A stretch of 48,323 nucleotides of DNA from Candidatus Heimdallarchaeota archaeon. GTDB lineage: Archaea; Asgardarchaeota; Heimdallarchaeia; Hodarchaeales; Hodarchaeaceae. The translations under genes and the position numbers were made by a program. Shown in pieces: positions 33,015 to 46,516 of the stretch (within the stretch, counting starts at the first letter, position 1; each line of letters opens with the position of its first letter). The stretch lies in NCBI GenBank assembly GCA_020353515.1, contig CP070695.1, positions 1,029,161-1,077,483 of the forward strand, read 5' to 3'. A model generated the notes under the pieces. That model did not search any database, had not been told where the DNA came from, and saw only the letters and a program-made list of their open reading frames with translations.

Positions 33015-34613
33015 TTGATTCCCAAGGAAAAGAAATTTATCTCCGAAGTGGACGAATTATCAGGGCAAACACTGCAAAGAGCCGATAAAGTGGGATATGG
33101 AAGAAATGGGTATGTTGAGCAGAAAAATCATATAATAAAGTTATCTATTTCTAATTTAAAACTTGAATATATCCCAGAAAGTATAGAAAATTTAGAAGAA
33201 CTAAAAATTCTTTATATGGGAGGAAATTATTTAACTAAAATTCCTGATTCAATTTTAACATTGAGGAATTTGGAAGTTTTAGAAGCTTGGGAAAATAGGA
33301 TTGAATTAATCCCTAAAGATATCGGAATCTTGAATAAAGTTTGGCGATTACATCTTGCAGGGAACAAAATTACTGAACTCCCTGAAAGCATTGGTGATCT
33401 GCCAATGAAGAAACTGTATCTTAAACATAACAATGTTTGTTATGTTCCAGAGAGTATTGGGAACTGGATACGCCTCGATGTTTTCGGCCTCCCTCTCAAT
33501 AATCTTTCCTCACTACCAGAAACCATTAATGGTTGGAAAAATGTACGCGTAATCTCACTCTGGCAAAATAAGCTGAAAGCGTTGCCAGATGTTCAACTCA
33601 ACGTAAAAGAGTTACGTTTGAATAACAATTTTTTTACGGAAGTACCTCCACGGGTATACGAGATTCAACAATTAAGGAAACTTTGGTTGAACAGTAACCA
33701 ATTGACGGAGATACCAGAAATCCCGAAAGGACAGCTTAAAAATTTATGGTTCCTAAATTTACAGAATAACTTCCTTTCTTCATTACCCCGATCACTTCAG
33801 CAATTACCTAATCTTCGTGATTTAAGACTCTCTGGAAACCTGTTTGAGTCATATCCAGACTGGTTGGATTCCCTGGAAGGATGTAAAGTAGATAAATCGG
33901 CTCACAAACAACAGATTCAACAACCAGATTATATAGGGGTCAAGAAATATGTGAAATATCTCGAAGATCATCACTTACCAATAGAACATTTAGTGGAAAT
34001 TAAGCATTTTCAAAGATACCTTGAGAATGAGAAGGGGTTCTCCAGAATTGTTAAAGCAAAGGCAGATGATGTTAAAGATTTCATTTCACAGACAGAAATC
34101 ACACCTTTTGCCCTGAGATCTCTGTTTTTATATTTTTCTTGGCTTCAGGATTTTCCTTTACATCGAATTATTAAGGAAGAATTAGAAAATTACGCACAAA
34201 TAATGAATATCAATCTTCAAGATGTCAACCGACTTTCACAGGAATCTCAGACTGTGACCTCATTATTAACACTGGATGAAGAAGAGAAGAAACCTTCTCG
34301 CATTCTTTCTCAACCCCAAAGAGTTGAACCACGAATTGAGGGAGATGAATGGGAAGCTTTCATTGCTGAATTAGACAAAATCTCTTTTGAAGCTGTAAAA
34401 ATTCTCATTAAGTCTTCAAAACCCAAAATAGCACTTGAAAAATTCGCAAGAAGTCAAAATAGGCTTCCAGAGACTCTTCTTGAGGCTATTAATGAGTTGG
34501 CATTAGAGTTTATTGGTGACCTCATTGTTGATCAAGAGACCTATCAGATTACAGAAGATAATTATAAGGAAAAATTGCTTGAAATCTCATTTTCAAGTGA
34601 AAAACCAGAGTAA
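33015..34613 (+). CDS. LRR protein fused to an integrase-SAM-like helical domain and a C-terminal TerB_C domain
   Basis: About 11 LxLxxNxLxxLPxxI repeats. C-terminal 'INLQDVNRLSQESQTVTSLL...DEWEAF...LPETLLEAINELALEFIGDLIVD' aligns with the C-terminus of 36133..39615. Confidence 0.88.
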   Translation: MIPKEKKFISEVDELSGQTLQRADKVGYGRNGYVEQKNHIIKLSISNLKLEYIPESIENLEELKILYMGGNYLTKIPDSILTLRNLEVLEAWENRIELIPKDIGILNKVWRLHLAGNKITELPESIGDLPMKKLYLKHNNVCYVPESIGNWIRLDVFGLPLNNLSSLPETINGWKNVRVISLWQNKLKALPDVQLNVKELRLNNNFFTEVPPRVYEIQQLRKLWLNSNQLTEIPEIPKGQLKNLWFLNLQNNFLSSLPRSLQQLPNLRDLRLSGNLFESYPDWLDSLEGCKVDKSAHKQQIQQPDYIGVKKYVKYLEDHHLPIEHLVEIKHFQRYLENEKGFSRIVKAKADDVKDFISQTEITPFALRSLFLYFSWLQDFPLHRIIKEELENYAQIMNINLQDVNRLSQESQTVTSLLTLDEEEKKPSRILSQPQRVEPRIEGDEWEAFIAELDKISFEAVKILIKSSKPKIALEKFARSQNRLPETLLEAINELALEFIGDLIVDQETYQITEDNYKEKLLEISFSSEKPE

Positions 34614-36132: not shown

Positions 36133-39100
36133 TTGTATGGAAAGCATTTTTCGATGTCAACGATTTTGACTATTGTTGCAGAAAATTTAAGGGTTAATAC
36201 AAAGGAAATAAGAGACTATCAGCTCGTTATCCCAAAAAGGTTCGAAAATATATTTCCTGTAGAAATCACGACAGTTTTAGCAGCTTATCAAGGGAGCCCT
36301 ACCCCTAACATTGGAGATTATTTTTCTTTTCAGGTTTCCTCCGAAAGTTCCTTAGTTCAGAGAGAATTATATGTTCAAATTGATGAAATTACTCCATTTG
36401 AATCAATATCAAAATATGCTAATAAAGAGGAAATCGAATCGATCCTCCAAATATCTCTAATAGAAATTGATTATTGGATAGTAGCAACAGTCCTTGGATA
36501 CTATTCTCCAAAAAGAAAGAAAATTTTAATGTCAGAAAATCCCCTCGTTGGGAAGGTAGGGAAGATTCCTGATTCAGAATCCATATTAATTTTTCTAAAC
36601 CAATATATGGAATGTCTATTTTACAGTTTCCCCCTTAAACTAATAAATTACTTAGTCCATAACTCGACTCAAGGAAGTAAGTTCTGTCAAAGAGGGAATA
36701 CCAAGATTTTAGAGAATATACTTCCTAAAATTATGAAAAAGATTAATAACCACTTTTTAGACGTTCAGAGCAAAAATTTTCTTAATATGTTTCCATCACA
36801 AACCAATTTCACCATTACACAAGAAACTACAAATGTTAATGATATTAAGCACGAATATATAAATTGGCTTGCATCTAATAAACCAATGGTGGATTTCTTT
36901 ACTGATATATTGAAATTCACTGAAAAAAAACTCAGTTTGATTGTGAAATATCGAGGTAAAGTGGAAGTAAATCCAAGACCTCTTAATAATCAGATCAAGG
37001 AAATAATCCATATAGAACTAAAGAAATATGAAACGAGGATACAACCAAAAAGGAAATTGAATAAAAAGCAACTAATTTTTGCAGAGTTTGAAATAGGTTT
37101 CACACCGAAGAAACAAGTCAAAATATCCATAATAAAACCTGAAGTGAAACCTCAAGAACGAATATACAGTAGGAAGCCTGCCTCCGTTGAAACCAAAGAG
37201 ATTATCTCCAAAACTCATGAAAATCAAGGAAATATTAGTGAACTTGAAACCAAGATGAAGGTCGCTGCTCACTCTCTGGATTTTAAACAAGCATCCCGAA
37301 TTCGTGAGAAACTCGAAGATTTAAAGGGAGTATGTTGCGTTAAAGTAGTAGAAGAACCGCAATCTGATTTTAAAACAGCTATCGTTGAAGAAATTCCTAG
37401 AATCCCTAAATTCGTCCCATTTGAGCAATATTGGCCTACTTTAGATACAATGAATGAGGATCAAAAGAGTTGGTACGATCATTGGGTGTCAGAAATCGAA
37501 AATGGACATTATTATCCAACCGATTTGTCTTATATTTTTCTTTATATATATCAAATACTTGATTATGAAGATAAAGAAAAAGGTTATCGTTTACTACGAG
37601 AGATTTGGATCCATTACCGAAGAGAACATCCTAAATTGGACCATTATTTAATTGATTGGATTACAGATTATATCCTTCTACATGATTGCCATTATGATCA
37701 AAGAACCATAAATAAAGAACTAATAAAATTTCATTCAGAATATACGGTAGAATGTCTCGACTCAATTCTGACATTATTCCCACCCCGTTTTAAAGAAATA
37801 CCAATTGATTGGATTAATGTTCTGGCAAATAACAGTATTAAAAGCAGTACTTTTTATTTATCGAAACCAAAAGTCATGAACCAAATTATCCCTGAAGTAC
37901 TTGACGCAATTGACCGACATTATCACGAGACTGAAAACATAGGCTTATTAGAGAAATTTAAGCCTGATAAAGTGGCACGATTCGTTTTTGATAAAGCACT
38001 CAAGGATGAAAGTTATCTTACGAAGACTATTGAAATTTTACCCTACACAAAGTCACCTCCTTTTCTTGTTTTCATCGTAGAGGTTGTAAGGACAACAGAG
38101 AGTAAACTCCGTAAGTATTATCGTTTTCCAGCTCTTCCTCATATCAGTATGTTAGAAAGAGAAATTGAGAAAGTAATTGAAACTATATTTACCAAATTTA
38201 TTAGCGAGTTAAGTTTAACTGAACATGAGACAGAATTATCCTTCATTGATGCCGCGCAAAATTATGTCAATAGGATCGAGGATGAAGTTAAACCAGTTCC
38301 TCTTTACCAATTTCAACCTAACTATCAAGATATGACAAAAGCTCAATTACAATGGTACTTTTATTGGCGTAACCAGGTTAGGAATGGCAACTTTATCTCT
38401 GCTCAAATTGGGTACATTATATTATATATCTATGAAATCATTAATGATATTGGAATCCAAGATCCTCAAGAGGGTTATAAACGATTATTAGCTCTGTGGG
38501 AATATTACCGTATTGATAATCCTGAGTTGGATGAATATTTCCCTGAATGGATCGTGGAATATGCAATTCTAAATGACATACCTGTTGATAACATTGAGGA
38601 ACTCTATCATACGATTTTAAGTAGATTAGATGGAAGAGAACAGAGAGATCTTCGATATGAATTAACAGAGCTTCTACTCTTTCAGTTTCAACAGGAAGCT
38701 TTTAGCAAAATTCCAATCAGAATGATTTATGAGCTTGTGGGTTACTCGAATTTTCTTCCCTATACCCGATTAAATGATTCAGTTCGGTCTACAATAGATC
38801 AGCATGTGGGGTCTATACTAAATGAAGTGAATAATTATTATCTGCATAAATACCAAAAAGGGTTGTTAGAATTCTTTAGTCCCACTAAAAAACGAAGAAT
38901 CCCCTTTGTTCTCGCCCGATATTTTGGTGAGACTGATATATTAGAGATAAAAGGTTTTTCTCGACAATTCTTAAATTTTTTAGATAATACAATAAGATTC
39001 ATTCAAAATCGTTTCCGTGATATTGAGTTTGATACAACTAAAACCCGATTAAAGGCTGTTATTCCAGATCCTGAAGTTGAAGTCTTGATTGATTATTATT

Positions 39101-39615
39101 TCATAGATAACTTAAATGCCACAAACATCATGCCTAAATATTCTAAAATTGTTTTACAGGTTCAAAGTGGCGATTTAGGTGTGGATCAATCTAAAATAAA
39201 GGCATTAACCGAAGAATCCGATGAAATTCAATCCCTCTTAAGAACTACCGACACATTTGAGTTCGAGCAGGAAGAACCTATACTTGATTTAGAAGCGGTT
39301 CAAGAAGAAATTGAAGAGCCAACTAATCAAGATATTGCTCAGAAAACGGAAATAAGCGGATTAGATGAGTGGGATCTGTTTCGATCAAGATTGACTGATC
39401 TTCAACTAAAGGTTTTAAGGATATTATTGCGTAGTAAAACCCCAAAAGAGCAATTAGATCAGATTGCTAAGCAAACTAGCACTTTACCAGAAGCAATAAT
39501 AGAATCCATTAATGAAATCGCACTTGAGATAATAGATGATATTATAATTGATTCTGAACTTCTTAACGTTATTGAAGAGTATCTAGATAGATTGAAGTCG
39601 ATTATCACGAAATAA
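36133..39615 (+). CDS. sngA: Shango SngA-like TerB_N/TerB_C protein (HAS-barrel-like N-terminus, UVR coil, 2x TerB_N, TerB_C)
   Basis: TerB_N 'FEQYWPTLDTMNEDQKSWY...TDLSYIFLYIYQIL' and 'PNYQDMTKAQLQWYFYWR...GYIILYIYEIINDIG'; TerB_C 'IKALTEESDEIQSLL...LPEAIIESINEIALEIIDDIIID'. Likely start ATG 36154. Confidence 0.85.
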   Translation: MYGKHFSMSTILTIVAENLRVNTKEIRDYQLVIPKRFENIFPVEITTVLAAYQGSPTPNIGDYFSFQVSSESSLVQRELYVQIDEITPFESISKYANKEEIESILQISLIEIDYWIVATVLGYYSPKRKKILMSENPLVGKVGKIPDSESILIFLNQYMECLFYSFPLKLINYLVHNSTQGSKFCQRGNTKILENILPKIMKKINNHFLDVQSKNFLNMFPSQTNFTITQETTNVNDIKHEYINWLASNKPMVDFFTDILKFTEKKLSLIVKYRGKVEVNPRPLNNQIKEIIHIELKKYETRIQPKRKLNKKQLIFAEFEIGFTPKKQVKISIIKPEVKPQERIYSRKPASVETKEIISKTHENQGNISELETKMKVAAHSLDFKQASRIREKLEDLKGVCCVKVVEEPQSDFKTAIVEEIPRIPKFVPFEQYWPTLDTMNEDQKSWYDHWVSEIENGHYYPTDLSYIFLYIYQILDYEDKEKGYRLLREIWIHYRREHPKLDHYLIDWITDYILLHDCHYDQRTINKELIKFHSEYTVECLDSILTLFPPRFKEIPIDWINVLANNSIKSSTFYLSKPKVMNQIIPEVLDAIDRHYHETENIGLLEKFKPDKVARFVFDKALKDESYLTKTIEILPYTKSPPFLVFIVEVVRTTESKLRKYYRFPALPHISMLEREIEKVIETIFTKFISELSLTEHETELSFIDAAQNYVNRIEDEVKPVPLYQFQPNYQDMTKAQLQWYFYWRNQVRNGNFISAQIGYIILYIYEIINDIGIQDPQEGYKRLLALWEYYRIDNPELDEYFPEWIVEYAILNDIPVDNIEELYHTILSRLDGREQRDLRYELTELLLFQFQQEAFSKIPIRMIYELVGYSNFLPYTRLNDSVRSTIDQHVGSILNEVNNYYLHKYQKGLLEFFSPTKKRRIPFVLARYFGETDILEIKGFSRQFLNFLDNTIRFIQNRFRDIEFDTTKTRLKAVIPDPEVEVLIDYYFIDNLNATNIMPKYSKIVLQVQSGDLGVDQSKIKALTEESDEIQSLLRTTDTFEFEQEEPILDLEAVQEEIEEPTNQDIAQKTEISGLDEWDLFRSRLTDLQLKVLRILLRSKTPKEQLDQIAKQTSTLPEAIIESINEIALEIIDDIIIDSELLNVIEEYLDRLKSIITK

Positions 39616-40968
39616 TTGCCTGAAGGACGCATTACAACAATGTCGAAGAAAAGAATACCACAACGTGTTTCAGCGACAATACTAAAATCCTTGAGTGCTG
39701 GGGTAGTGCCCCGGATAGGTCTTGAACATATCGCAGTAGGTCGAAAAGAAGAAATTGAATCATTATTAGAAGATTTGGAAAATATTGAAGTGGGTAGTGC
39801 AGCTTTTCGGTTTTTTATTGGACGATATGGATCTGGTAAGAGTTTCTTGATTCAACTGTTAAGAAATTATGCCATGGATCGGGATTTCGTTGTTGCTGAT
39901 GTAGATTTATCCCCAGCACGACGATTCATTGGCGGGGGAAATAAAGGCGTTGCTACATATCGTGAACTCATTACAAATATGTCCACAAAGACTCGTCCTA
40001 GTGGGGGCGCATTAACAGCTATTTTAGAGAAATGGATCTCCAAGATTCAATCCATGGTGATCATTGAAAAAGGGATTAAACCTCAAGACCCTATTTTTGT
40101 GGATCAAGTGGAAACAGAGATAATAAATGCAGTAAATAACATTAAGGATTTAGTCCATGGTTTTGATTTTGCTACCGTTATCTCAACCTACTGGCGAGGG
40201 CATAAATTAGGGGAGGAAGAGACAAAAGAAAATGCACTTCGATGGTTACGAGGGGAATACACAACTAAAACTGAGGCACGAAATGCCATAAGTGTTAGTG
40301 TCATTGTTGATGACGATTCTTGGTATGATTATATCAAGTTACTAGCACGGTTTATCACAGAAATTGGATATAAGGGACTTTTGATCTTTTTTGATGAGGC
40401 TGTCAACTTATATAAGATCACCCATACCCAATCAAGAACCAACAACTACGAGAAACTCTTGACAATGTATAATGACACCATGCAAGGAAAAGCTGAGTAT
40501 CTCGGAATTTTTGTGGGGGGAACTCCCCAATTTTTGGAAGATCGCCGAAGAGGTCTCTATAGCTATGAAGCACTTCACTCAAGACTTGTAGAAAGCCGAT
40601 TTACAAAGAATGGGCTCCGTGATATTTCAGGCCCTGTCATTAAACTTGAACGATTATCCTTAGAAGAAATTTTTGTACTATTAACTCGAGTTATGAATGT
40701 TCATGCTCTCCACTATAAGTATGAAACTTTTTTAACAAATAATGAGCTTCAAGAATTCATTAAAATAATAGTAAGCCGTATTGGGGCCGATAAACTCCTT
40801 ACTCCCCGAGAATTTGTGCGGGAATTTATTATTTTATTAAATATCTTACGGAGGAATCCGGAACAATCCTTCTTAGGCCTTATTCATGGTGAAGACTTCA
40901 AACCACAAGCCCCAAGTCAAGTAGAGGAATCAGTCAAAGGTACAGAATATGAGGAATTTACCTTATGA
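39616..40968 (+). CDS. sngB: DUF2791/BrxD-like P-loop ATPase (Shango SngB-like)
   Basis: 'LSAGVVPRIGLEHIAVGRKEEI', Walker A GRYGSGKS, 'ALRWLRGE', Walker B 'FFDEAVNL', 'GLYSYEALHSRL', 'TPREF'. Likely start ATG 39640. Confidence 0.92.
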   Translation: MPEGRITTMSKKRIPQRVSATILKSLSAGVVPRIGLEHIAVGRKEEIESLLEDLENIEVGSAAFRFFIGRYGSGKSFLIQLLRNYAMDRDFVVADVDLSPARRFIGGGNKGVATYRELITNMSTKTRPSGGALTAILEKWISKIQSMVIIEKGIKPQDPIFVDQVETEIINAVNNIKDLVHGFDFATVISTYWRGHKLGEEETKENALRWLRGEYTTKTEARNAISVSVIVDDDSWYDYIKLLARFITEIGYKGLLIFFDEAVNLYKITHTQSRTNNYEKLLTMYNDTMQGKAEYLGIFVGGTPQFLEDRRRGLYSYEALHSRLVESRFTKNGLRDISGPVIKLERLSLEEIFVLLTRVMNVHALHYKYETFLTNNELQEFIKIIVSRIGADKLLTPREFVREFIILLNILRRNPEQSFLGLIHGEDFKPQAPSQVEESVKGTEYEEFTL

Positions 40969-43205
40969 GTGACACTATTTTCAACCGATTTCCTGCATTC
41001 ATTCAAGAATGGATATATTCACATGGATGGGAGGAATTACGTGAAATTCAGGTTGCTTCTGCTCAAGCGATATTTGAGACAAAAGATCATGTGTTATTGG
41101 CAACAGGTACAGCCAGTGGGAAGACAGAGGCAGCTTTTTTTCCTGCATTAACACTAATTTATGAAGATCCTCCTGCAAGTATTGGTATCCTTTACATCTC
41201 ACCTTTGAAGGCTTTAATTAATGACCAATTTAACCGTATTGAGGAATTGTTAGAGGAAGCGGAGATTTCAGCTTGGCCGTGGCATGGTGATATCCCTCGA
41301 AATTTAAAAAGAAAGCTAATTGAAAATCCTAGTGGTGTTCTCCAAATTACACCTGAATCTATGGAAAGTTTGTTAATAAATAGGCAACAAGAATTACGTA
41401 GGATGTTTGGTGATCTTCGATTTGTGATCATAGATGAAGTACATGTATTTATGAATGCTGAAAGAGGAACTCAAATCTTATGTCAATTAGAACGCTTGGG
41501 GAATATCATTGGCTATCATCCCCGACGTATAGGTCTTTCAGCGACTCTGAGCGACTATAGCTCTGCAGAAAAGTGGTTAAGTTCGGGAACCAATATTCCA
41601 GTGAATACTCCGAAGGTACAGGGATTAATCAAAAGAATAAGATTAGCTGTTGAGAATTTCATAGATCCTAATCCCAATCCAGCTGGAATAATGCAGTATG
41701 GTGAGAGTGGTGAGTTGGTTGCTCCTGCTACAGAACCTTCTTCAGAACCATACCCCTCGAATATGTATTTATTTGATCAAACGTTAAATCGTCAGTGTTT
41801 AATCTTTACTAATACCCGAGAACGAGCAGAAAGCACAATTAATGCTCTTCGGGCAATTGCTGACCAAAAACGATTTCCGAATCGGTATTATGTTCATCAT
41901 GGAAGTATTTCAGCTTCTCTTAGAGAAGAAGCAGAATCAATTATGAAAACAGGGGACATTCCTTCAGTTACAGCATGTTCAGTTACATTGGAATTAGGAA
42001 TTGATATTGGATCTCTGGAAAGAATTATTCAAATTGGATCCCCACGAACGGTTTCCAGTTTTTTACAGCGTTTAGGACGATCAGGTAGAAAGGAAGCTGA
42101 TGTCTCTGAAATTCTTTTCATCCATTCGGAAGAAGAACCATCAGATAATAAGCCATTACCTTACCTAATACCTTGGGAATTGATCCAATCTGTTGCAATC
42201 ATCAATTTATATTTAGAAGAACGCTGGATTGAACCAATACGAGAATTGAAGTCGCCCTTCAGTTTATTATATCATCAAACAATGTCCTCTTTAGCTTCTG
42301 CGGGCGAGCTCTCTCCTCAATCTCTCGCTCAACGAGTTCTTTCCTTAACGCCATTTCAACACGTCTCTCAAGACAATTATCGGACTCTTATTCGTCACCT
42401 CATTGAATTAAATCACATTGAACAAATTGAAGATACAGGGGGAGGTTTAATCGTTGGTTTAGATGGTGAACGAGTTGTTAGAAATTATCGATTTTATGCT
42501 GTATTTCCTGATGTCGTAGAGTGGACAGTGAAAGATACTGAAGGATTTGATGAAATAGGCAAAGTTGGACAATTATTTCTCCCTGGAGATCGGTTTCCAC
42601 TTGCAGGATATACTTGGGAAGTTAAAGAAATCTATCCCGATCAAAAAATGATAATTGTTTCGAAAGTAGGCGGTCGTACAAGGTATTTCTGGCCTGGAGG
42701 GATTGCTCCTGTGCATACTAAAGTCCTTCAACATATGCGAAAAATCCTCTTTGAAGATAAAATTTATCCTTATCTGCAAGCTGGTGCTGCTGAACGTATT
42801 CAACAGGTTAGAACACTAGCCCGAGAGGTAAGGATGGATAAACGAGCACTTTTTCAACTCGCAGGTCACAAATTTGTACTTATTCCTTGGTCTGGGTCAA
42901 TTTCGTTTCGAACAATTAGAAGAATATTGGAAATACATTCTGAAGAACTGGGGATCAGGAGCTTGAATGAACAGTCTCCATATTTCTTCTTATTTGAAGC
43001 TGAAGACAAAGAAAGAGAGAGTCTTGAATCAGAGATTAAAAAATTGTGTAAGAGAATTGAATCACCTTCCGAGCTTGTCAAAGAGGATGAAATCTTTGTT
43101 TGGCGGAAATTTGACCAATATATCCCAACAGATCTCCAACAACAGACATTAATGGATGATTACTTGGACTTGGAAGAAGTTAAAGAAATTATCAAGAACT
43201 GGTGA
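40965..43205 (+). CDS. sngC: Lhr-like DEAD/DEAH helicase (Shango SngC-like), copy 1
   Basis: 'TASGKTEAA', 'SPLKALINDQ', 'TPES', DEVH, SAT, 'TLELGIDIG', 'QRLGRSGR'. ATGA overlap with the ATPase. Confidence 0.92.
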   Translation: MSDTIFNRFPAFIQEWIYSHGWEELREIQVASAQAIFETKDHVLLATGTASGKTEAAFFPALTLIYEDPPASIGILYISPLKALINDQFNRIEELLEEAEISAWPWHGDIPRNLKRKLIENPSGVLQITPESMESLLINRQQELRRMFGDLRFVIIDEVHVFMNAERGTQILCQLERLGNIIGYHPRRIGLSATLSDYSSAEKWLSSGTNIPVNTPKVQGLIKRIRLAVENFIDPNPNPAGIMQYGESGELVAPATEPSSEPYPSNMYLFDQTLNRQCLIFTNTRERAESTINALRAIADQKRFPNRYYVHHGSISASLREEAESIMKTGDIPSVTACSVTLELGIDIGSLERIIQIGSPRTVSSFLQRLGRSGRKEADVSEILFIHSEEEPSDNKPLPYLIPWELIQSVAIINLYLEERWIEPIRELKSPFSLLYHQTMSSLASAGELSPQSLAQRVLSLTPFQHVSQDNYRTLIRHLIELNHIEQIEDTGGGLIVGLDGERVVRNYRFYAVFPDVVEWTVKDTEGFDEIGKVGQLFLPGDRFPLAGYTWEVKEIYPDQKMIIVSKVGGRTRYFWPGGIAPVHTKVLQHMRKILFEDKIYPYLQAGAAERIQQVRTLAREVRMDKRALFQLAGHKFVLIPWSGSISFRTIRRILEIHSEELGIRSLNEQSPYFFLFEAEDKERESLESEIKKLCKRIESPSELVKEDEIFVWRKFDQYIPTDLQQQTLMDDYLDLEEVKEIIKNW

Positions 43206-45487
43206 GGGATCTGGCCTCGGATCAATTCTATCGTCTTGCTCCATGGATTCAAGAGTGGATTTATCGGCGGCAATGGGAGGTATTTAGACCAATTCAAGAA
43301 GAGGCTTGTAAAGTTATATTCGATACTCCCCACCATCTGTTGTTAGCGACTGGAACTGCCAGTGGGAAGACCGAAGCAGCATTATTTCCTATCTTGACTC
43401 TATTGGATCAAAATCCTTCTGCAAGTGTTGGGGTATTGTATATTGGACCATTAAAAGCTCTTATTAATGATCAGTTCCAGCGAGTAGAGGATCTCCTTCA
43501 AGAGGCGGATATAAAAGTCTGGCGATGGCACGGAGACGTCTCACAGAGTCATAAAGCCAAATTAGTTAAAAATCCAAACGGATTACTACAAATCACTCCA
43601 GAATCATTAGAAAGTTTATTAATCAATCGTACAACTGATTTACGAAGACTCTTTGGGGATCTACGATTCGTCATTATTGATGAAGTGCATGCGTTCATGC
43701 CTCAATTATCGGATCGAGGAAGACAGGTTCTTTGTCAACTTGAGCGGCTTCAAGAGTTTGTAAACCGAATTCCACGACGAATTGGTCTTTCAGCAACACT
43801 TGGTGATTATTCATATGCGGAATATTGGCTTGCTTCAGGCACTAATCAATCTGTTATTACTCCGATTACAAATGAACCCTCGAAAAAACTTAGGCTAAGT
43901 ATTGAACATTTTACTGAAACAACATGGTATCGAGCAAAAATGAGAGGACAACCCCCACCACGTGGCCTTGATCTCCCATCACATAGATGGATCTTTGATT
44001 TAGTTTTAGGAAGAAAATGTATAATTTTTCAGAATGATAGAGAAAGAACTGAACTTGTGACTCATGGATTAAGAGAAATCGCTAAATCAAAAGGATTACC
44101 TGATGTATACCACACGCATCATTCATGTATAGCAGGTTTGCTTAGAGAGGATGCAGAGGAGTTCTTGAAAGAAAAGAATGGAGTCCCCCATGTTGTTGCA
44201 GCAACTATGACTCTAGAGTTAGGCATTGATATTTCTGATGTGGAAAGGATTATCCATGTAGATAGCCCTCATGCTGTTTCCACATTCGTACAACGTTTAG
44301 GAAGATCTGGTAGAGTAAATAACGCATCAGAGATGTTATTTGCAATTTCTGAGAACCCCAAGACAGATCGAACACCTCTTGCATATCAACTCCCCTATCG
44401 GTTATTACAGGCTATCGCTGTTGTCGAGCTCTATCTCGATGAACGATGGGTCGAACCTGCAATTCCCCTCAAAAAGCCATTTTCAATCTTATTCCATCAA
44501 ACAATGTCTATCTTAGCCTCTGCTGGTGAACTTTCTCCTCAGGCGTTAGCTCAAAGAGTGTTATCACTTTCTCCTTTCAAGAATATTACCCAGGCTGAAT
44601 TTCGCGTATTATTAAACCATCTTCTCAAAAATGATTACATCGAACAAATTCAAGATGGGGGTTTGGTGCTTGGACTCGCTGGAGAAAAAATAGTCCGAAA
44701 TTACCGTTTTTATGCAGTATTTCGAGACTATGCTGTTGACTATTCAGTGAAAGAGGGGACACGAGAGATTGGCCATATTGAACAACTCCTTGAACCAGGT
44801 GATCAATTATTAATAGGCGGATATCCTTATCGAATAACCCAAGCTTACCCCAAACAAAAGCTCATGCTAGCTGAAAAGATAACTGACAAACCATTGTACG
44901 TATGGCCAGGGAGAATAGCACCTGTTCATACGAGAGTAGTTCAACGCATGCGACGTTCTCTCTTTGAAGAAAAAAATTATTCATTTCTCCAAAGAGGCGC
45001 ACAGCTCCGACTTAAGGAAGGCCAATTATTCGCCAAAGAGCAGCAGTTAGATAAAAAGGTCTTATTACAAGAGTCAAAAAGCAGGTATAGCCTGCTCCCA
45101 TGGATGGGGTCTACACCTTTCAGAACTCTTCTTCGTATATTAAAATTTCTTGGTCCAAACACCTTAGGGATCAATTGGGTACAACCTGAGCCTGTAACAA
45201 CAACAGATCCTCATCTTCCAGTCCATGTGGTTCAATTTGAAACTGGTAATTATAATAACGTCAATTCGCTTTATAAAGATCTATACAATCTAGTAGAAAG
45301 CGTTTCAGAGAAAGAATTACATCAATTATATGATCAGTCTGAAAAATTTATTTATGAGAGATACCATCATCTATTACCAATAGACTTGCAGCGAGAGGTT
45401 TTAGTTCATAATTACCTGGATCTTGAGGAGGTTAAGAGTGTCATTCGTACGTGGGAGGATTATTCTGTTTACTGGCAAGAAAATTGA
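43202..45487 (+). CDS. sngC: Lhr-like DEAD/DEAH helicase (Shango SngC-like), copy 2
   Basis: Same complete motif set (TASGKT, DEVH, SAT, TLELGID, QRLGRSGR). GTGA overlap with copy 1. Confidence 0.9.
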   Translation: MRDLASDQFYRLAPWIQEWIYRRQWEVFRPIQEEACKVIFDTPHHLLLATGTASGKTEAALFPILTLLDQNPSASVGVLYIGPLKALINDQFQRVEDLLQEADIKVWRWHGDVSQSHKAKLVKNPNGLLQITPESLESLLINRTTDLRRLFGDLRFVIIDEVHAFMPQLSDRGRQVLCQLERLQEFVNRIPRRIGLSATLGDYSYAEYWLASGTNQSVITPITNEPSKKLRLSIEHFTETTWYRAKMRGQPPPRGLDLPSHRWIFDLVLGRKCIIFQNDRERTELVTHGLREIAKSKGLPDVYHTHHSCIAGLLREDAEEFLKEKNGVPHVVAATMTLELGIDISDVERIIHVDSPHAVSTFVQRLGRSGRVNNASEMLFAISENPKTDRTPLAYQLPYRLLQAIAVVELYLDERWVEPAIPLKKPFSILFHQTMSILASAGELSPQALAQRVLSLSPFKNITQAEFRVLLNHLLKNDYIEQIQDGGLVLGLAGEKIVRNYRFYAVFRDYAVDYSVKEGTREIGHIEQLLEPGDQLLIGGYPYRITQAYPKQKLMLAEKITDKPLYVWPGRIAPVHTRVVQRMRRSLFEEKNYSFLQRGAQLRLKEGQLFAKEQQLDKKVLLQESKSRYSLLPWMGSTPFRTLLRILKFLGPNTLGINWVQPEPVTTTDPHLPVHVVQFETGNYNNVNSLYKDLYNLVESVSEKELHQLYDQSEKFIYERYHHLLPIDLQREVLVHNYLDLEEVKSVIRTWEDYSVYWQEN

Positions 45488-45514: not shown

Positions 45515-46516
45515 ATGAAAATAAATGAAGTTATCAAGAAATTATTAGCTTCAAAGGATCCAGCAATTCAATTAAAGGTGTATTTACGACTACTGGAACA
45601 TGATTATGAGAGTCACGAAGTTCAGAAAGTAGTATCTGTCATCAAAGAGTCACCTGTGGTTTCAGGATTACTAAGCGCCCTTTCAGCTCAAGAAAAGGTA
45701 TATAATACAAAAGAGATCGGAGAGGGACGTGTTTATAAGAAGTGGGAAGGAATTCATTGGGTATTGGCGGACTTGGCAGATATTGGTTATCCCCCAGGAG
45801 ATCAAACATTACTAGCAAGCATTAAACTTGAGTTGAACTGGTTATTAAGTAAGAAACGCTGGGCAAGTAAGAAGACACTTAATGGACGAAAGAGATTTTG
45901 TGCTTCTCAAGAAGGGAATGGATTATTTTCAATTACATCACTCGGACTAGCAGAACATGTCTTGGAGGAATGTTCAATTCTAGCTAATCGTTTAATTACC
46001 TATCAATGGCAGGACGGAGGATGGAATTGTGATGTGCGACCTGAAGCAAAAAACTCATCCTATCATGAAAGTGCAATTCCCCTAAGAGCATTGAACGTCT
46101 TTGAGAGAAGAACTAGCGATCCGAAGGCAAAAAAAGCAGTCGACCAAGCATCAGAATTGTTTCTCAAGAGAAGATTCTATAAAAAATTGAATACCAACAA
46201 AATTATTGATAGGAATTGGACAAAATTATCGTATCCTTCATATTGGATGTATAACTTCTTCTTTGGATTGAAAGTGATCGCTGAATGTGGAAAAATAGAA
46301 GATTCTCGGTGTGAAGATGCTTTACAGTTACTCGAATCCAAACAACTCCCTGAGGGAGGATTTCCAGCAGAACAGAAGAATTTCTTTACTAATAAAAGGT
46401 CTCGCTATTCTCCAGTTGACTGGGGAGAATTAAATAGACGGAAAATGAATGAATGGGTCACAATTGACGCGTTCTATATTTTGAAAGAAGCAAACAAAAT
46501 CGATCTTGAAGTATAG
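45515..46516 (+). CDS. Prenyltransferase/squalene-cyclase-repeat (alpha/alpha barrel) protein of unknown function
   Basis: QW-type motifs 'QWQDGGWNC' and 'QLPEGGFP'; 'YKKWEGIHW', 'YPSYWMY', 'NEWVT'. Confidence 0.7.
   Translation: MKINEVIKKLLASKDPAIQLKVYLRLLEHDYESHEVQKVVSVIKESPVVSGLLSALSAQEKVYNTKEIGEGRVYKKWEGIHWVLADLADIGYPPGDQTLLASIKLELNWLLSKKRWASKKTLNGRKRFCASQEGNGLFSITSLGLAEHVLEECSILANRLITYQWQDGGWNCDVRPEAKNSSYHESAIPLRALNVFERRTSDPKAKKAVDQASELFLKRRFYKKLNTNKIIDRNWTKLSYPSYWMYNFFFGLKVIAECGKIEDSRCEDALQLLESKQLPEGGFPAEQKNFFTNKRSRYSPVDWGELNRRKMNEWVTIDAFYILKEANKIDLEV

What the first reader, a model, noticed from the sequence alone, without database searches (positions are those of the whole stretch)
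36154..37326. SngA-like protein has an unusual N-terminal extension: HAS-barrel-like domain plus UVR coil
Seen: 'PNIGDYFSFQV...ELYVQIDEI...YWIVATVLGY...ENPLVGKVGKIPDSESILIFL' (about 36298-36600) follows the HerA HAS-barrel pattern. 'ISELETKMKVAAHSLDFKQASRIREKLEDLK' (37234-37326) is a clear UvrB/UvrC-type UVR motif. There is no obvious TM anchor or central TerB domain. Inference: interaction modules borrowed from DNA-repair machines (HerA/NurA, UvrBC) may link the system to DNA repair or act as decoys for viral inhibitors of repair.
Basis: partly seen in the sequence, partly recalled or inferred. Interest (0 to 1): 0.7.

Follow-up and report, generated by a model that had tools for sequence, protein, structure and literature searches.

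The report
Shango scaffold with borrowed HerA barrel
In one genus of Asgard archaea, the scaffold protein of the Shango antiviral system carries an extra head made of a beta-barrel copied from the DNA-repair motor HerA, a third copy of its own middle module and a UvrB/UvrC-type helical hairpin. This architecture was not found described in the papers searched, and its role is inferred, not shown.

Summary
Window 36154-39615 (+) encodes a 1153-aa SngA (PADLOC E 1.7e-94), followed by SngB and two SngC helicases.

- **HAS barrel.** Residues about 11-144 form a HAS-type beta-barrel. The profile matches HerA N-termini of other Asgard families (hhalign 97%, E 8e-11). An AlphaFold model (pLDDT 76.5) finds HerA and F1-ATPase barrels first in Foldseek, VIA-align (Z up to 9.2) and the ESM Atlas.
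- **UVR motif.** Residues 368-398 are a true UVR motif: 26.5 bits against a cut-off of 21.5, and rmsd 0.8 A over 38 residues to the UvrB C-terminus.
- **New here.** Residues about 150-340 are a third copy of the SngA middle module. The head is therefore barrel + middle module + hairpin, set before two TerB_N units and TerB_C.
- **Distribution.** The architecture is rare: three clusters among 1.84 billion representatives, and 7 of 22 species of one genus among 400 Asgard genomes. It always lies in a six-gene cassette with an LRR-TerB_C protein.

The function is inferred. I read the head as an assembly or partner-docking module, and possibly a sensor because the barrel evolves fastest. The repair-link and decoy ideas remain untested, and the host's own HerA barrel does not resemble it. 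The scan's first readers noted orthologues on other genomes; those notes are unchecked.

Verdict: a new variant of a known system.

The parts
36154..39615 (+). sngA-long gene (1153 aa from ATG 36154; the open frame starts at TTG 36133)
   Evidence: PADLOC SngA E 1.7e-94. Pfam finds TerB_N twice, TerB_C and UVR. Homologues start at MST.
36154..36582 (+). HAS-type beta-barrel (residues 8-150; strands 11-144 with a helical insert at about 89-105)
   Evidence: hhalign to Asgard HerA N-termini 97.0%, E 8.3e-11. AF2 model. Foldseek, VIA-align and Atlas put HerA and F1 barrels first.
36223..36261 (+). Motif L-x-IPKRF-x4-P (residues 31-42, invariant in the 8 orthologues) in a low-confidence loop of the barrel
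   Evidence: Invariant columns L31, I33-F37 and P42 in 8 orthologues. pLDDT is below 50 for model residues 14-30.
36583..37062 (+). Third copy of the SngA middle helical module (residues 151-310; motifs PLKLINYL, GSKFCQ.GN, TEKKLS..KYRGK)
   Evidence: The profile matches the region behind TerB_N in about 15 SngA-type proteins and residues 528-725 of the same protein (hhalign 92.3%, E 5.5e-7; own-genome scan).
37063..37212 (+). Basic, probably disordered linker (residues 311-360)
   Evidence: pLDDT is below 50 for model residues 303-355. Net charge of residues 311-366 is +5.
37213..37335 (+). UVR helical hairpin (residues 361-401; Pfam match 368-398)
   Evidence: PF02151 scores 26.5 bits against a cut-off of 21.5. 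UvrB 2nmv_B: rmsd 0.8 A over 38 residues, 40% identity. Alignment with the host's UvrB and UvrC hairpins.
37411..37704 (+). TerB_N core, copy 1 (residues 427-524)
   Evidence: Pfam PF13208, E 1.3e-12 on residues 400-700.
37714..38217 (+). Middle module, copy 1 (residues 528-695)
   Evidence: hhalign A2 against A3. The SngA profile positions 63-379 match this unit.
38218..38601 (+). TerB_N core, copy 2 (residues 696-823)
   Evidence: Pfam PF13208, E 3.3e-30.
39139..39594 (+). TerB_C domain (residues 1003-1154)
   Evidence: Pfam PF15615, E 8.6e-12.
39616..40968 (+). sngB (BrxC/BrxD-type AAA+ ATPase)
   Evidence: PADLOC SngB E 1.4e-187; Pfam BrxC_BrxD E 5e-166.
40965..43205 (+). sngC copy 1 (Lhr/BrxHI-like SF2 helicase)
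   Evidence: PADLOC SngC E 8.5e-227.
43202..45487 (+). sngC copy 2, 49% identical to copy 1
   Evidence: PADLOC SngC E 7.8e-212. BLASTP 49% identity.
33015..34613 (+). LRR-TerB_C protein, conserved upstream partner of the cassette
   Evidence: Pfam LRR_8/LRR_4 and TerB_C. PADLOC SngA positions 330-522, E 4.8e-15. Its C-terminus is 31% identical to the SngA tail. Present in L001, L002 and five genus-mates.
45515..46516 (+). Conserved 333-aa gene at the end of the cassette, function unknown
   Evidence: No Pfam or PADLOC hit. Conserved in L001 and L002. Atlas features resemble prenyltransferase/terpene-cyclase-like proteins; this is a lead only.

Best explanation
This is the scaffold subunit (SngA) of a Shango antiviral system found in one genus of Asgard archaea. 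Ahead of a canonical-size SngA it carries a duplicated TerB_N unit and a 400-residue head. The head consists of a beta-barrel homologous to the HAS barrel of HerA translocases, a third copy of the SngA middle helical module, a basic flexible linker and a UVR helical hairpin. In the repeat pattern, the barrel occupies the place that the TerB_N core holds in the other two units.

Shown: the domain identities, the repeat structure, the cassette and the narrow distribution.

Inferred: the head is a protein-protein assembly and recognition device. In every solved complex, HAS barrels form the N-terminal collar of a ring and clamp a partner enzyme (NurA, Sir2, DUF4297). UVR hairpins pair with like hairpins. 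The barrel would therefore oligomerise SngA or dock a partner onto it. The hairpin would add a homotypic contact. The TerB_C tail, shared with the neighbouring LRR protein, would plug either head into the SngB ATPase and SngC helicase engine. Because the barrel is the fastest-evolving folded domain, it is probably the surface that faces the virus or a variable partner.
For: - Identity of the system: PADLOC SngA, SngB and SngC twice.
- Barrel: library-wide profile hit to a HerA in a NurA-HerA-Mre11-Rad50 operon; hhalign 95.7% and 97.0%; AF2 model pLDDT 76.5; HerA and F1 barrels top Foldseek, VIA-align (Z up to 9.2, 97-111 residues, rmsd 2.8-3.6) and the Atlas.
- Middle-module repeat.
- UVR.
- Cassette conserved in L001 and L002 and in genus-mates.
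- Shared TerB_C tail with the LRR protein.
- Mean pairwise identity among 8 orthologues: barrel 58%, TerB_N cores 83-85%.
- Role of HAS barrels as ring collar and docking site for NurA and Sir2: PMC9960219 and PMC11472057.
- BrxD-type ATPases are ORC/Cdc6-like and proposed to load the BrxHI-type helicase: PMC12839542.
Against: - No experiment or co-fold supports any contact.
- A HAS barrel without its ATPase may not form a ring.
- Pfam's own HAS-barrel model does not hit the barrel.
- One HerA row was among the 28 rows of the alignment used for the model, which could nudge the fold. No templates were used.
- Faster divergence of the barrel could equally mean relaxed constraint.
- No paper I found gives a mechanism for Shango, so the engine part of the model rests on homology only.
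Confidence: 0.6

Rival explanations
1. Integrated decoy or sensor. The barrel imitates the collar of a HerA ring, so that a viral protein which attacks HerA-NurA end resection binds SngA instead and switches the Shango engine on. This would resemble the integrated decoys of plant NLR receptors.
For: - The barrel is homologous to a repair-operon HerA barrel.
- It is the fastest-evolving folded domain.
- The same cassette holds a second head built on LRRs, a classical recognition domain, on the same TerB_C tail.
Against: - The host's own HerA barrel is not detectably similar to the SngA barrel (hhalign 0.4%).
- The barrel profile finds no second copy in the genome.
- No viral inhibitor of archaeal HerA or NurA was examined here.
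Confidence: 0.15
2. Physical bridge to host repair enzymes. The UVR hairpin pairs with the hairpins of UvrB or UvrC, and the barrel binds a NurA nuclease. This would give Shango the nuclease it lacks.
For: - The genome has exactly three UVR motifs: UvrB, UvrC and SngA.
- It has two NurA genes.
- Shango has no recognisable nuclease.
Against: - The SngA hairpin is only about 30% identical to the host hairpins.
- The host NurA genes sit with their own HerA genes, far from the cassette.
- No NurA of the type paired with the matching HerA was found in the genome with this query.
Confidence: 0.12
3. Relic. The head is a decayed third repeat of the SngA N-terminal unit that happened to pick up a small barrel, and it has no role of its own.
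For: - The middle module is a diverged repeat.
- The barrel and linkers are the least conserved parts.
Against: - The frame is open in at least 7 species and in two more distant variants.
- Many columns in the head are invariant, including IPKRF.
- The barrel and hairpin are modelled with high confidence.
- P0013 keeps the head although it has only one TerB_N unit.
Confidence: 0.08
4. The barrel is not a HAS barrel. It would be a generic small beta-barrel of the translation-protein, Gar1 or L35Ae type, and the HerA match would be chance.
For: - L35Ae, Gar1 and IF2 barrels also score Z 5.6-6.4.
- Foldseek E-values are weak, 0.02-0.07.
- Pfam PF09378 does not hit.
Against: - Sequence-profile homology to 14 HerA genes of two other Asgard families.
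- HerA and F1 barrels rank above all other barrels in four independent structure searches.
- The matching HerA N-terminus does not hit PF09378 either.
Confidence: 0.05

Closest known systems
Shango defence system (SngA TerB_N/TerB_C protein, SngB ATPase, SngC helicase) of E. coli and Pseudomonas aeruginosa
   Same: All three gene families are present, adjacent and in the same order, with strong PADLOC scores. The last ~530 residues of the protein cover the SngA profile (positions 81-526).
   Different: - SngA is twice as long, with an extra TerB_N unit and the barrel, middle-module and UVR head.
- There are two SngC paralogues.
- An LRR-TerB_C protein and a 333-aa gene are conserved in the cassette.
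- The host is an Asgard archaeon.
- Defence activity has not been tested for this variant.
HAS barrel of HerA/FtsK-type and F1/V1-type ring ATPases (for example Sulfolobus HerA 4d2i, Sir2-HerA 8wod, D. radiodurans HerA 7wrx)
   Same: Same fold by model comparison: Z 7.9-9.2, 87-111 residues aligned onto the N-terminal barrels. There is also detectable sequence homology to Asgard HerA barrels (97%).
   Different: No ATPase domain follows; the barrel is fused to a helical SngA module instead. Ring formation and partner docking are unproven here. The barrel is not similar to the host's own HerA barrel.
UVR domain (PF02151) of UvrB and UvrC
   Same: It has the canonical pattern L...M..AA..LDF..A..IR..I..L, scores above Pfam's cut-off and has the helical hairpin geometry of the UvrB C-terminus.
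   Different: It sits inside a defence scaffold, not a repair enzyme. It is about 30% identical to the host UvrB and UvrC hairpins. Its partner is unknown.
BREX type 2 BrxD-BrxHI pair
   Same: SngB and SngC also match BrxD (E 3.4e-51) and BrxHI (E 2e-117). A published proposal has the ATPase load or activate the helicase (PMC12839542).
   Different: No PglX, PglZ or other BREX core genes were seen among the ORFs checked next to the cassette. A TerB_N/TerB_C scaffold stands in their place.

Membership tests
Shango (SngABC) | SngA-type protein with TerB_N and TerB_C domains | tested here: met
   PADLOC SngA E 1.7e-94. Pfam TerB_N E 3.6e-41 and TerB_C E 8.6e-12.
Shango (SngABC) | Adjacent SngB ATPase and SngC helicase on the same strand | tested here: met
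   SngB E 1.4e-187. SngC E 8.5e-227 and 7.8e-212. The genes abut or overlap by 4 bp.
Shango (SngABC) | Protects cells against viruses | not testable with these tools
   Shown only for the E. coli and P. aeruginosa systems in the literature.
HAS barrel (HerA-ATP synthase barrel) | Beta-barrel fold superposable on the N-terminal barrels of HerA and F1 ATPases | tested here: met
   AF2 model pLDDT 76.5. VIA-align Z up to 9.2 to HerA chains, residues about 11-142. HerA hits top Foldseek.
HAS barrel (HerA-ATP synthase barrel) | Sequence homology to HerA N-termini | tested here: met
   hmmsearch E 4.9e-5 in 1.84 billion proteins. hhalign 97.0%, E 8.3e-11.
HAS barrel (HerA-ATP synthase barrel) | Match to Pfam PF09378 | tested here: not met
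   No hit at E<=10. The matching HerA N-terminus also fails this model at E<=1, so the model is too narrow to decide.
HAS barrel (HerA-ATP synthase barrel) | [quoted passage not shown] | tested here: not met
   A helical SngA module follows, not an ATPase. Ring formation could not be tested. The domain is therefore filed as a HAS-type barrel in a new context, not as a HerA.
UVR domain (PF02151) | Profile match above the curated cut-off | tested here: met
   26.5 bits for the segment and 26.7 bits in the genome scan, against a cut-off of 21.5. In the whole protein it scores 21.4 bits, just below.
UVR domain (PF02151) | Antiparallel helical hairpin | tested here: met
   Model helices 354-373 and 377-394. 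rmsd 0.8 A over 38 residues to UvrB 2nmv_B.
TerB domain proper (PF05099) | Profile match | tested here: not met
   Not among the Pfam hits at E<=0.1 for the whole protein, nor at E<=10 for the segments scanned.

The most novel reading that the evidence does not exclude
The barrel is an integrated decoy. It would be a copy of the HerA collar placed on an immune scaffold to catch viral proteins that disable archaeal end resection, next to an LRR receptor that uses the same TerB_C plug. That would be a guard/decoy immune logic, like that of plant NLRs, in the closest archaeal relatives of eukaryotes.
Probability: 0.12. Interest if true: 0.85.

Novelty: new variant of a known kind. Interest (0 to 1): 0.5.

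Why it matters
I found no paper giving a mechanism for Shango, and the role of its TerB_N/TerB_C scaffold is unclear. This variant shows the scaffold as a modular carrier. The same TerB_C tail bears either an LRR head or a barrel-and-hairpin head, and the cassette has two helicases. That points to TerB_C as the plug into the ATPase-helicase engine and to the N-terminal parts as exchangeable heads, which can be tested.

It is also a case of a HAS barrel living without its ATPase. I found no paper naming HAS-barrel together with TerB. Domain-deletion and pull-down experiments on this head could show how Shango senses infection.

Tried and rejected
- A single-sequence AF2 model of residues 1-420 failed (pLDDT 32.6) and was not used.
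- Pfam on residues 1-200 and 150-370 gave nothing at E<=10.
- A PDB sequence-profile search with the head gave only chance LRR-kinase rows, E about 0.7.
- The host's own HerA barrel does not match the SngA barrel profile (hhalign 0.4%). The matching HerA type aligns to the host HerA N-terminus at only 32.7%. The idea that the barrel copies the host's HerA was therefore dropped.
- SngC does not match the head (hhalign 0.1%), although BrxHI-type helicases are reported to hold a HAS-like barrel.
- A search for relatives of the distant variant P0013 found only itself. Its 6.2-kb contig has a TnpB/Cas12f-like gene downstream and no SngB, so its context says nothing.
- A NurA of the type paired with the matching HerA was not found in the genome with that single query.
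- dN/dS was not computed, because the orthologues are too divergent (58-85% protein identity) for unsaturated synonymous sites.
- The fold of the middle module alone was not searched.
Full report
**What is there.** The frame 36133-39615 (+) encodes a 1160-aa protein (P0001). All but one of seven close homologues begin at the MST that corresponds to ATG 36154, so the gene is most likely 36154-39615. PADLOC calls it SngA (E 1.7e-94). The three genes that follow are SngB (E 1.4e-187) and two SngC helicases (E 8.5e-227 and 7.8e-212). Pfam finds two TerB_N stretches (about 427-524 and 696-823), TerB_C (1003-1154) and a UVR motif (368-398). The SngA profile has 528 positions, and its best stretch covers residues 700-1157. 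Roughly the first 625 residues are therefore extra compared with a canonical SngA.

**The UVR motif.** In the whole protein it scores 21.4 bits, just under Pfam's cut-off of 21.5. Scanned as a segment it scores 26.5 bits, and in a scan of the whole genome 26.7 bits. Pfam lists it for five of the seven orthologues, and the motif is aligned in all of them. A distant relative, P0013, scores 26.8 bits. phmmer against PDB sequences finds only UvrB C-termini, E 0.04-0.1. In the model, the two helices superpose on the UvrB C-terminal hairpin 2nmv_B with rmsd 0.8 A over 38 residues at 40% identity. The genome holds exactly three UVR motifs: in UvrB, in UvrC and in this protein. The SngA hairpin is about 30% identical to the two host hairpins and keeps the L..M..AA..A..IR pattern.

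**The barrel.** Pfam gives nothing for residues 1-200, and a single-sequence model failed. I built a profile of the first ~340 residues of eight orthologues (A2) and ran it against 1.84 billion representative proteins. Besides its own kind, one HerA was found (P0023, E 4.9e-5). Its residues 17-131, which lie just before the DUF87 ATPase domain, match profile positions 38-152. P0023 lies in a NurA-HerA-Mre11-like-925 aa operon of a Lokiarchaeal genome and is a true HerA (E 1e-39 to Sulfolobus HerA 4d2i). hhalign gives 95.7%, E 9.6e-9.

A scan of 400 Asgard species genomes found barrel-only matches in 13 of 19 genomes of one other family and in one genome of a further family. Each lies in a 469-557 aa frame; the five loci examined have a ~450-aa ORF next to it. 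Against five of these HerA N-termini, hhalign gives 97.0%, E 8.3e-11, over 122 columns.

An AlphaFold model made with a 28-row alignment reached pLDDT 76.5 and pTM 0.67. Model numbering is protein numbering minus 7. The model shows:
- strands at 4-10, 39-46, 56-62, 69-80, 107-118, 123-125 and 135-137, with a helical insert at 82-98;
- a helical domain at 141-295;
- a low-confidence stretch at 303-355;
- a helical hairpin at 354-394.

Structure searches agree on the barrel:
- Foldseek's first 16 listed rows are all HerA, probability 0.87-1.0, E 0.02-0.07.
- VIA-align against 48,161 representatives puts TdpA, HerA, FliI, EscN and F1/V1 ATPases first (Z 6.2-8.9), always on their N-terminal barrels.
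- The second look gives 54 chains at Z of 8 or more, with the best at Z 9.2 (97-111 residues, rmsd 2.8-3.6); the 50 entries listed are all HerA, TdpA or F1.
- Nine of the ten ESM Atlas cluster rows shown, drawn from the 30 nearest models, are DUF87 HerA families.

One caveat applies. One of the 28 alignment rows was the HerA N-terminus that the search had found; no templates were used.

Profile positions about 150-300 match some 15 other TerB_N/TerB_C proteins, in the region that overlaps the end of Pfam's TerB_N and runs about 90 residues beyond it. The shared motifs are PL.LIN.L, S.KFY..G and TENKLR..YRGRL. The same region matches residues 528-725 of this protein itself (hhalign 92.3%, E 5.5e-7; own-genome scan E 1.6e-7). 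The protein therefore reads:

[barrel + middle module] - linker - UVR - [TerB_N core + middle module] - [TerB_N core + middle module] - TerB_C.

The barrel stands where a TerB_N core stands in the other two units.

**Distribution.**
- At 90% clustering there are seven homologues with the head, all 1140-1159 aa and all from Asgard metagenome genomes.
- At 50% clustering the head is in three clusters (P0007/P0012, P0013, P0014).
- Among 400 Asgard species genomes it is present in 7 of 22 species of the window's own genus and nowhere else.
- The SngA family as such was found in only 10 of the 400.
- One genus-mate has a variant with a shorter barrel (hhalign 99.6%).
- P0013 (912 aa) has the head, the hairpin and only one TerB_N unit. 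The head and the TerB_N duplication are thus separate events.

**Context.** In the window and in two other contigs the cassette has the same six genes: LRR-TerB_C, SngA-long, SngB, SngC1, SngC2 and a ~330-aa gene. The LRR protein's C-terminus matches SngA profile positions 330-522 (E 4.8e-15) and is 31% identical to the SngA tail. The two helicases are 49% identical. The genome is a single 4.94-Mb contig, so the fusion is not an assembly artefact.

**Which HerA.** The host's own HerA (P0031, next to NurA P0032) does not match the SngA barrel profile (hhalign 0.4%). The matching HerA type aligns to the host HerA N-terminus at only 32.7%. The SngA barrel is thus much nearer to the HerA of other Asgard families than those are to the host's HerA. 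This fits capture of a barrel from that HerA lineage; the direction and time of the event were not tested.

**How it may work.** Solved complexes show HAS barrels forming the collar and pore of the HerA ring and holding NurA or Sir2 (PMC9960219 and PMC11472057). BrxD-type ATPases, which SngB resembles, are ORC/Cdc6-like and have been proposed to load the BrxHI-type helicase (PMC12839542). UVR hairpins pair with like hairpins; this rests on established knowledge of UvrB-UvrC and was not tested here.

I infer that the head assembles SngA or docks a partner, and that TerB_C connects either head (barrel type or LRR type) to the SngB-SngC engine. Among eight orthologues the barrel is the least conserved folded domain, at 58% mean identity against 83-85% for the TerB_N cores. 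That fits an exposed recognition surface, but it also fits weaker constraint. The decoy and repair-bridge readings are not excluded and are ranked as rivals.

**Other checks.** No TerB domain proper appears, and no membrane segment is seen. A full-text search found no paper naming HAS-barrel together with TerB. The papers read give no mechanism for Shango. Shango is reported as enriched in Asgard genomes (PMC11291487).

**Earlier notes of the scan.** First readers flagged orthologues of this protein on other genomes, with the same barrel and UVR guesses. One note mentioned a threefold repeated helix-pair motif. These notes are unchecked. My repeat result came from the profile searches before I saw them.

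**Verdict.** This is a new variant of a known system, of moderate interest.

Noticed in passing
window 33015-34613 (+): A 532-aa protein has leucine-rich repeats followed by the C-terminal third of SngA (TerB_C). It is conserved directly upstream of the long SngA in other contigs and genus-mates. It looks like a second, LRR-based head for the same system.
   Followed up: partly
window 45515-46516 (+): A 333-aa gene is conserved at the end of the cassette (314 and 334 aa in L001 and L002). It has no Pfam or PADLOC hit. Protein-language features resemble prenyltransferase/terpene-cyclase-like alpha-alpha toroid proteins (score 0.95-0.96; a lead only).
   Followed up: partly
window 40965-45487 (+): There are two intact SngC helicase paralogues, 49% identical. 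Each overlaps its upstream gene by 4 bp. Both are conserved in every cassette seen.
   Followed up: partly
window 36223-36261 (+): The motif L-x-IPKRF-x4-P (residues 31-42) is invariant in 8 orthologues and lies in a low-confidence loop between the first two barrel strands. It may be a short docking motif.
   Followed up: no
G000:C1:921352-925138 (about 105 kb upstream of the window): A second NurA gene lies next to a HerA-like 536-aa frame, in addition to the NurA-HerA pair at C1:2.810-2.813 Mb. Its role (repair or defence) was not examined.
   Followed up: no
L003:4929-6206 (+): In the contig of the distant variant P0013, a TnpB/Cas12f-like gene (PADLOC Cas12f E 1.3e-25) lies downstream of SngA, after two small ORFs, where SngB would be expected. 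The cassette may be disrupted by a transposon.
   Followed up: partly
L017 (G057:C58:27273-30956): A genus-mate carries a 1091-aa SngA variant whose barrel is shorter and appears to lack the helical insert. It is the same type as the fragment P0014.
   Followed up: partly
P0006, P0007, P0008, P0011, P0014 (names given by NCBI): Orthologues are labelled Thorarchaeota, Promethearchaeota, Hodarchaeales and Hermodarchaeota in NCBI records. In the GTDB-based genome scan, all genomes with the full head fall in one genus.
   Followed up: no
P0016, P0021, P0025, P0026, P0029 (hits): Several other TerB_N/TerB_C proteins have 340-670 residues before TerB_N with no Pfam hit, and one has DUF4236. Variable N-terminal heads may be common in this family.
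   Followed up: no
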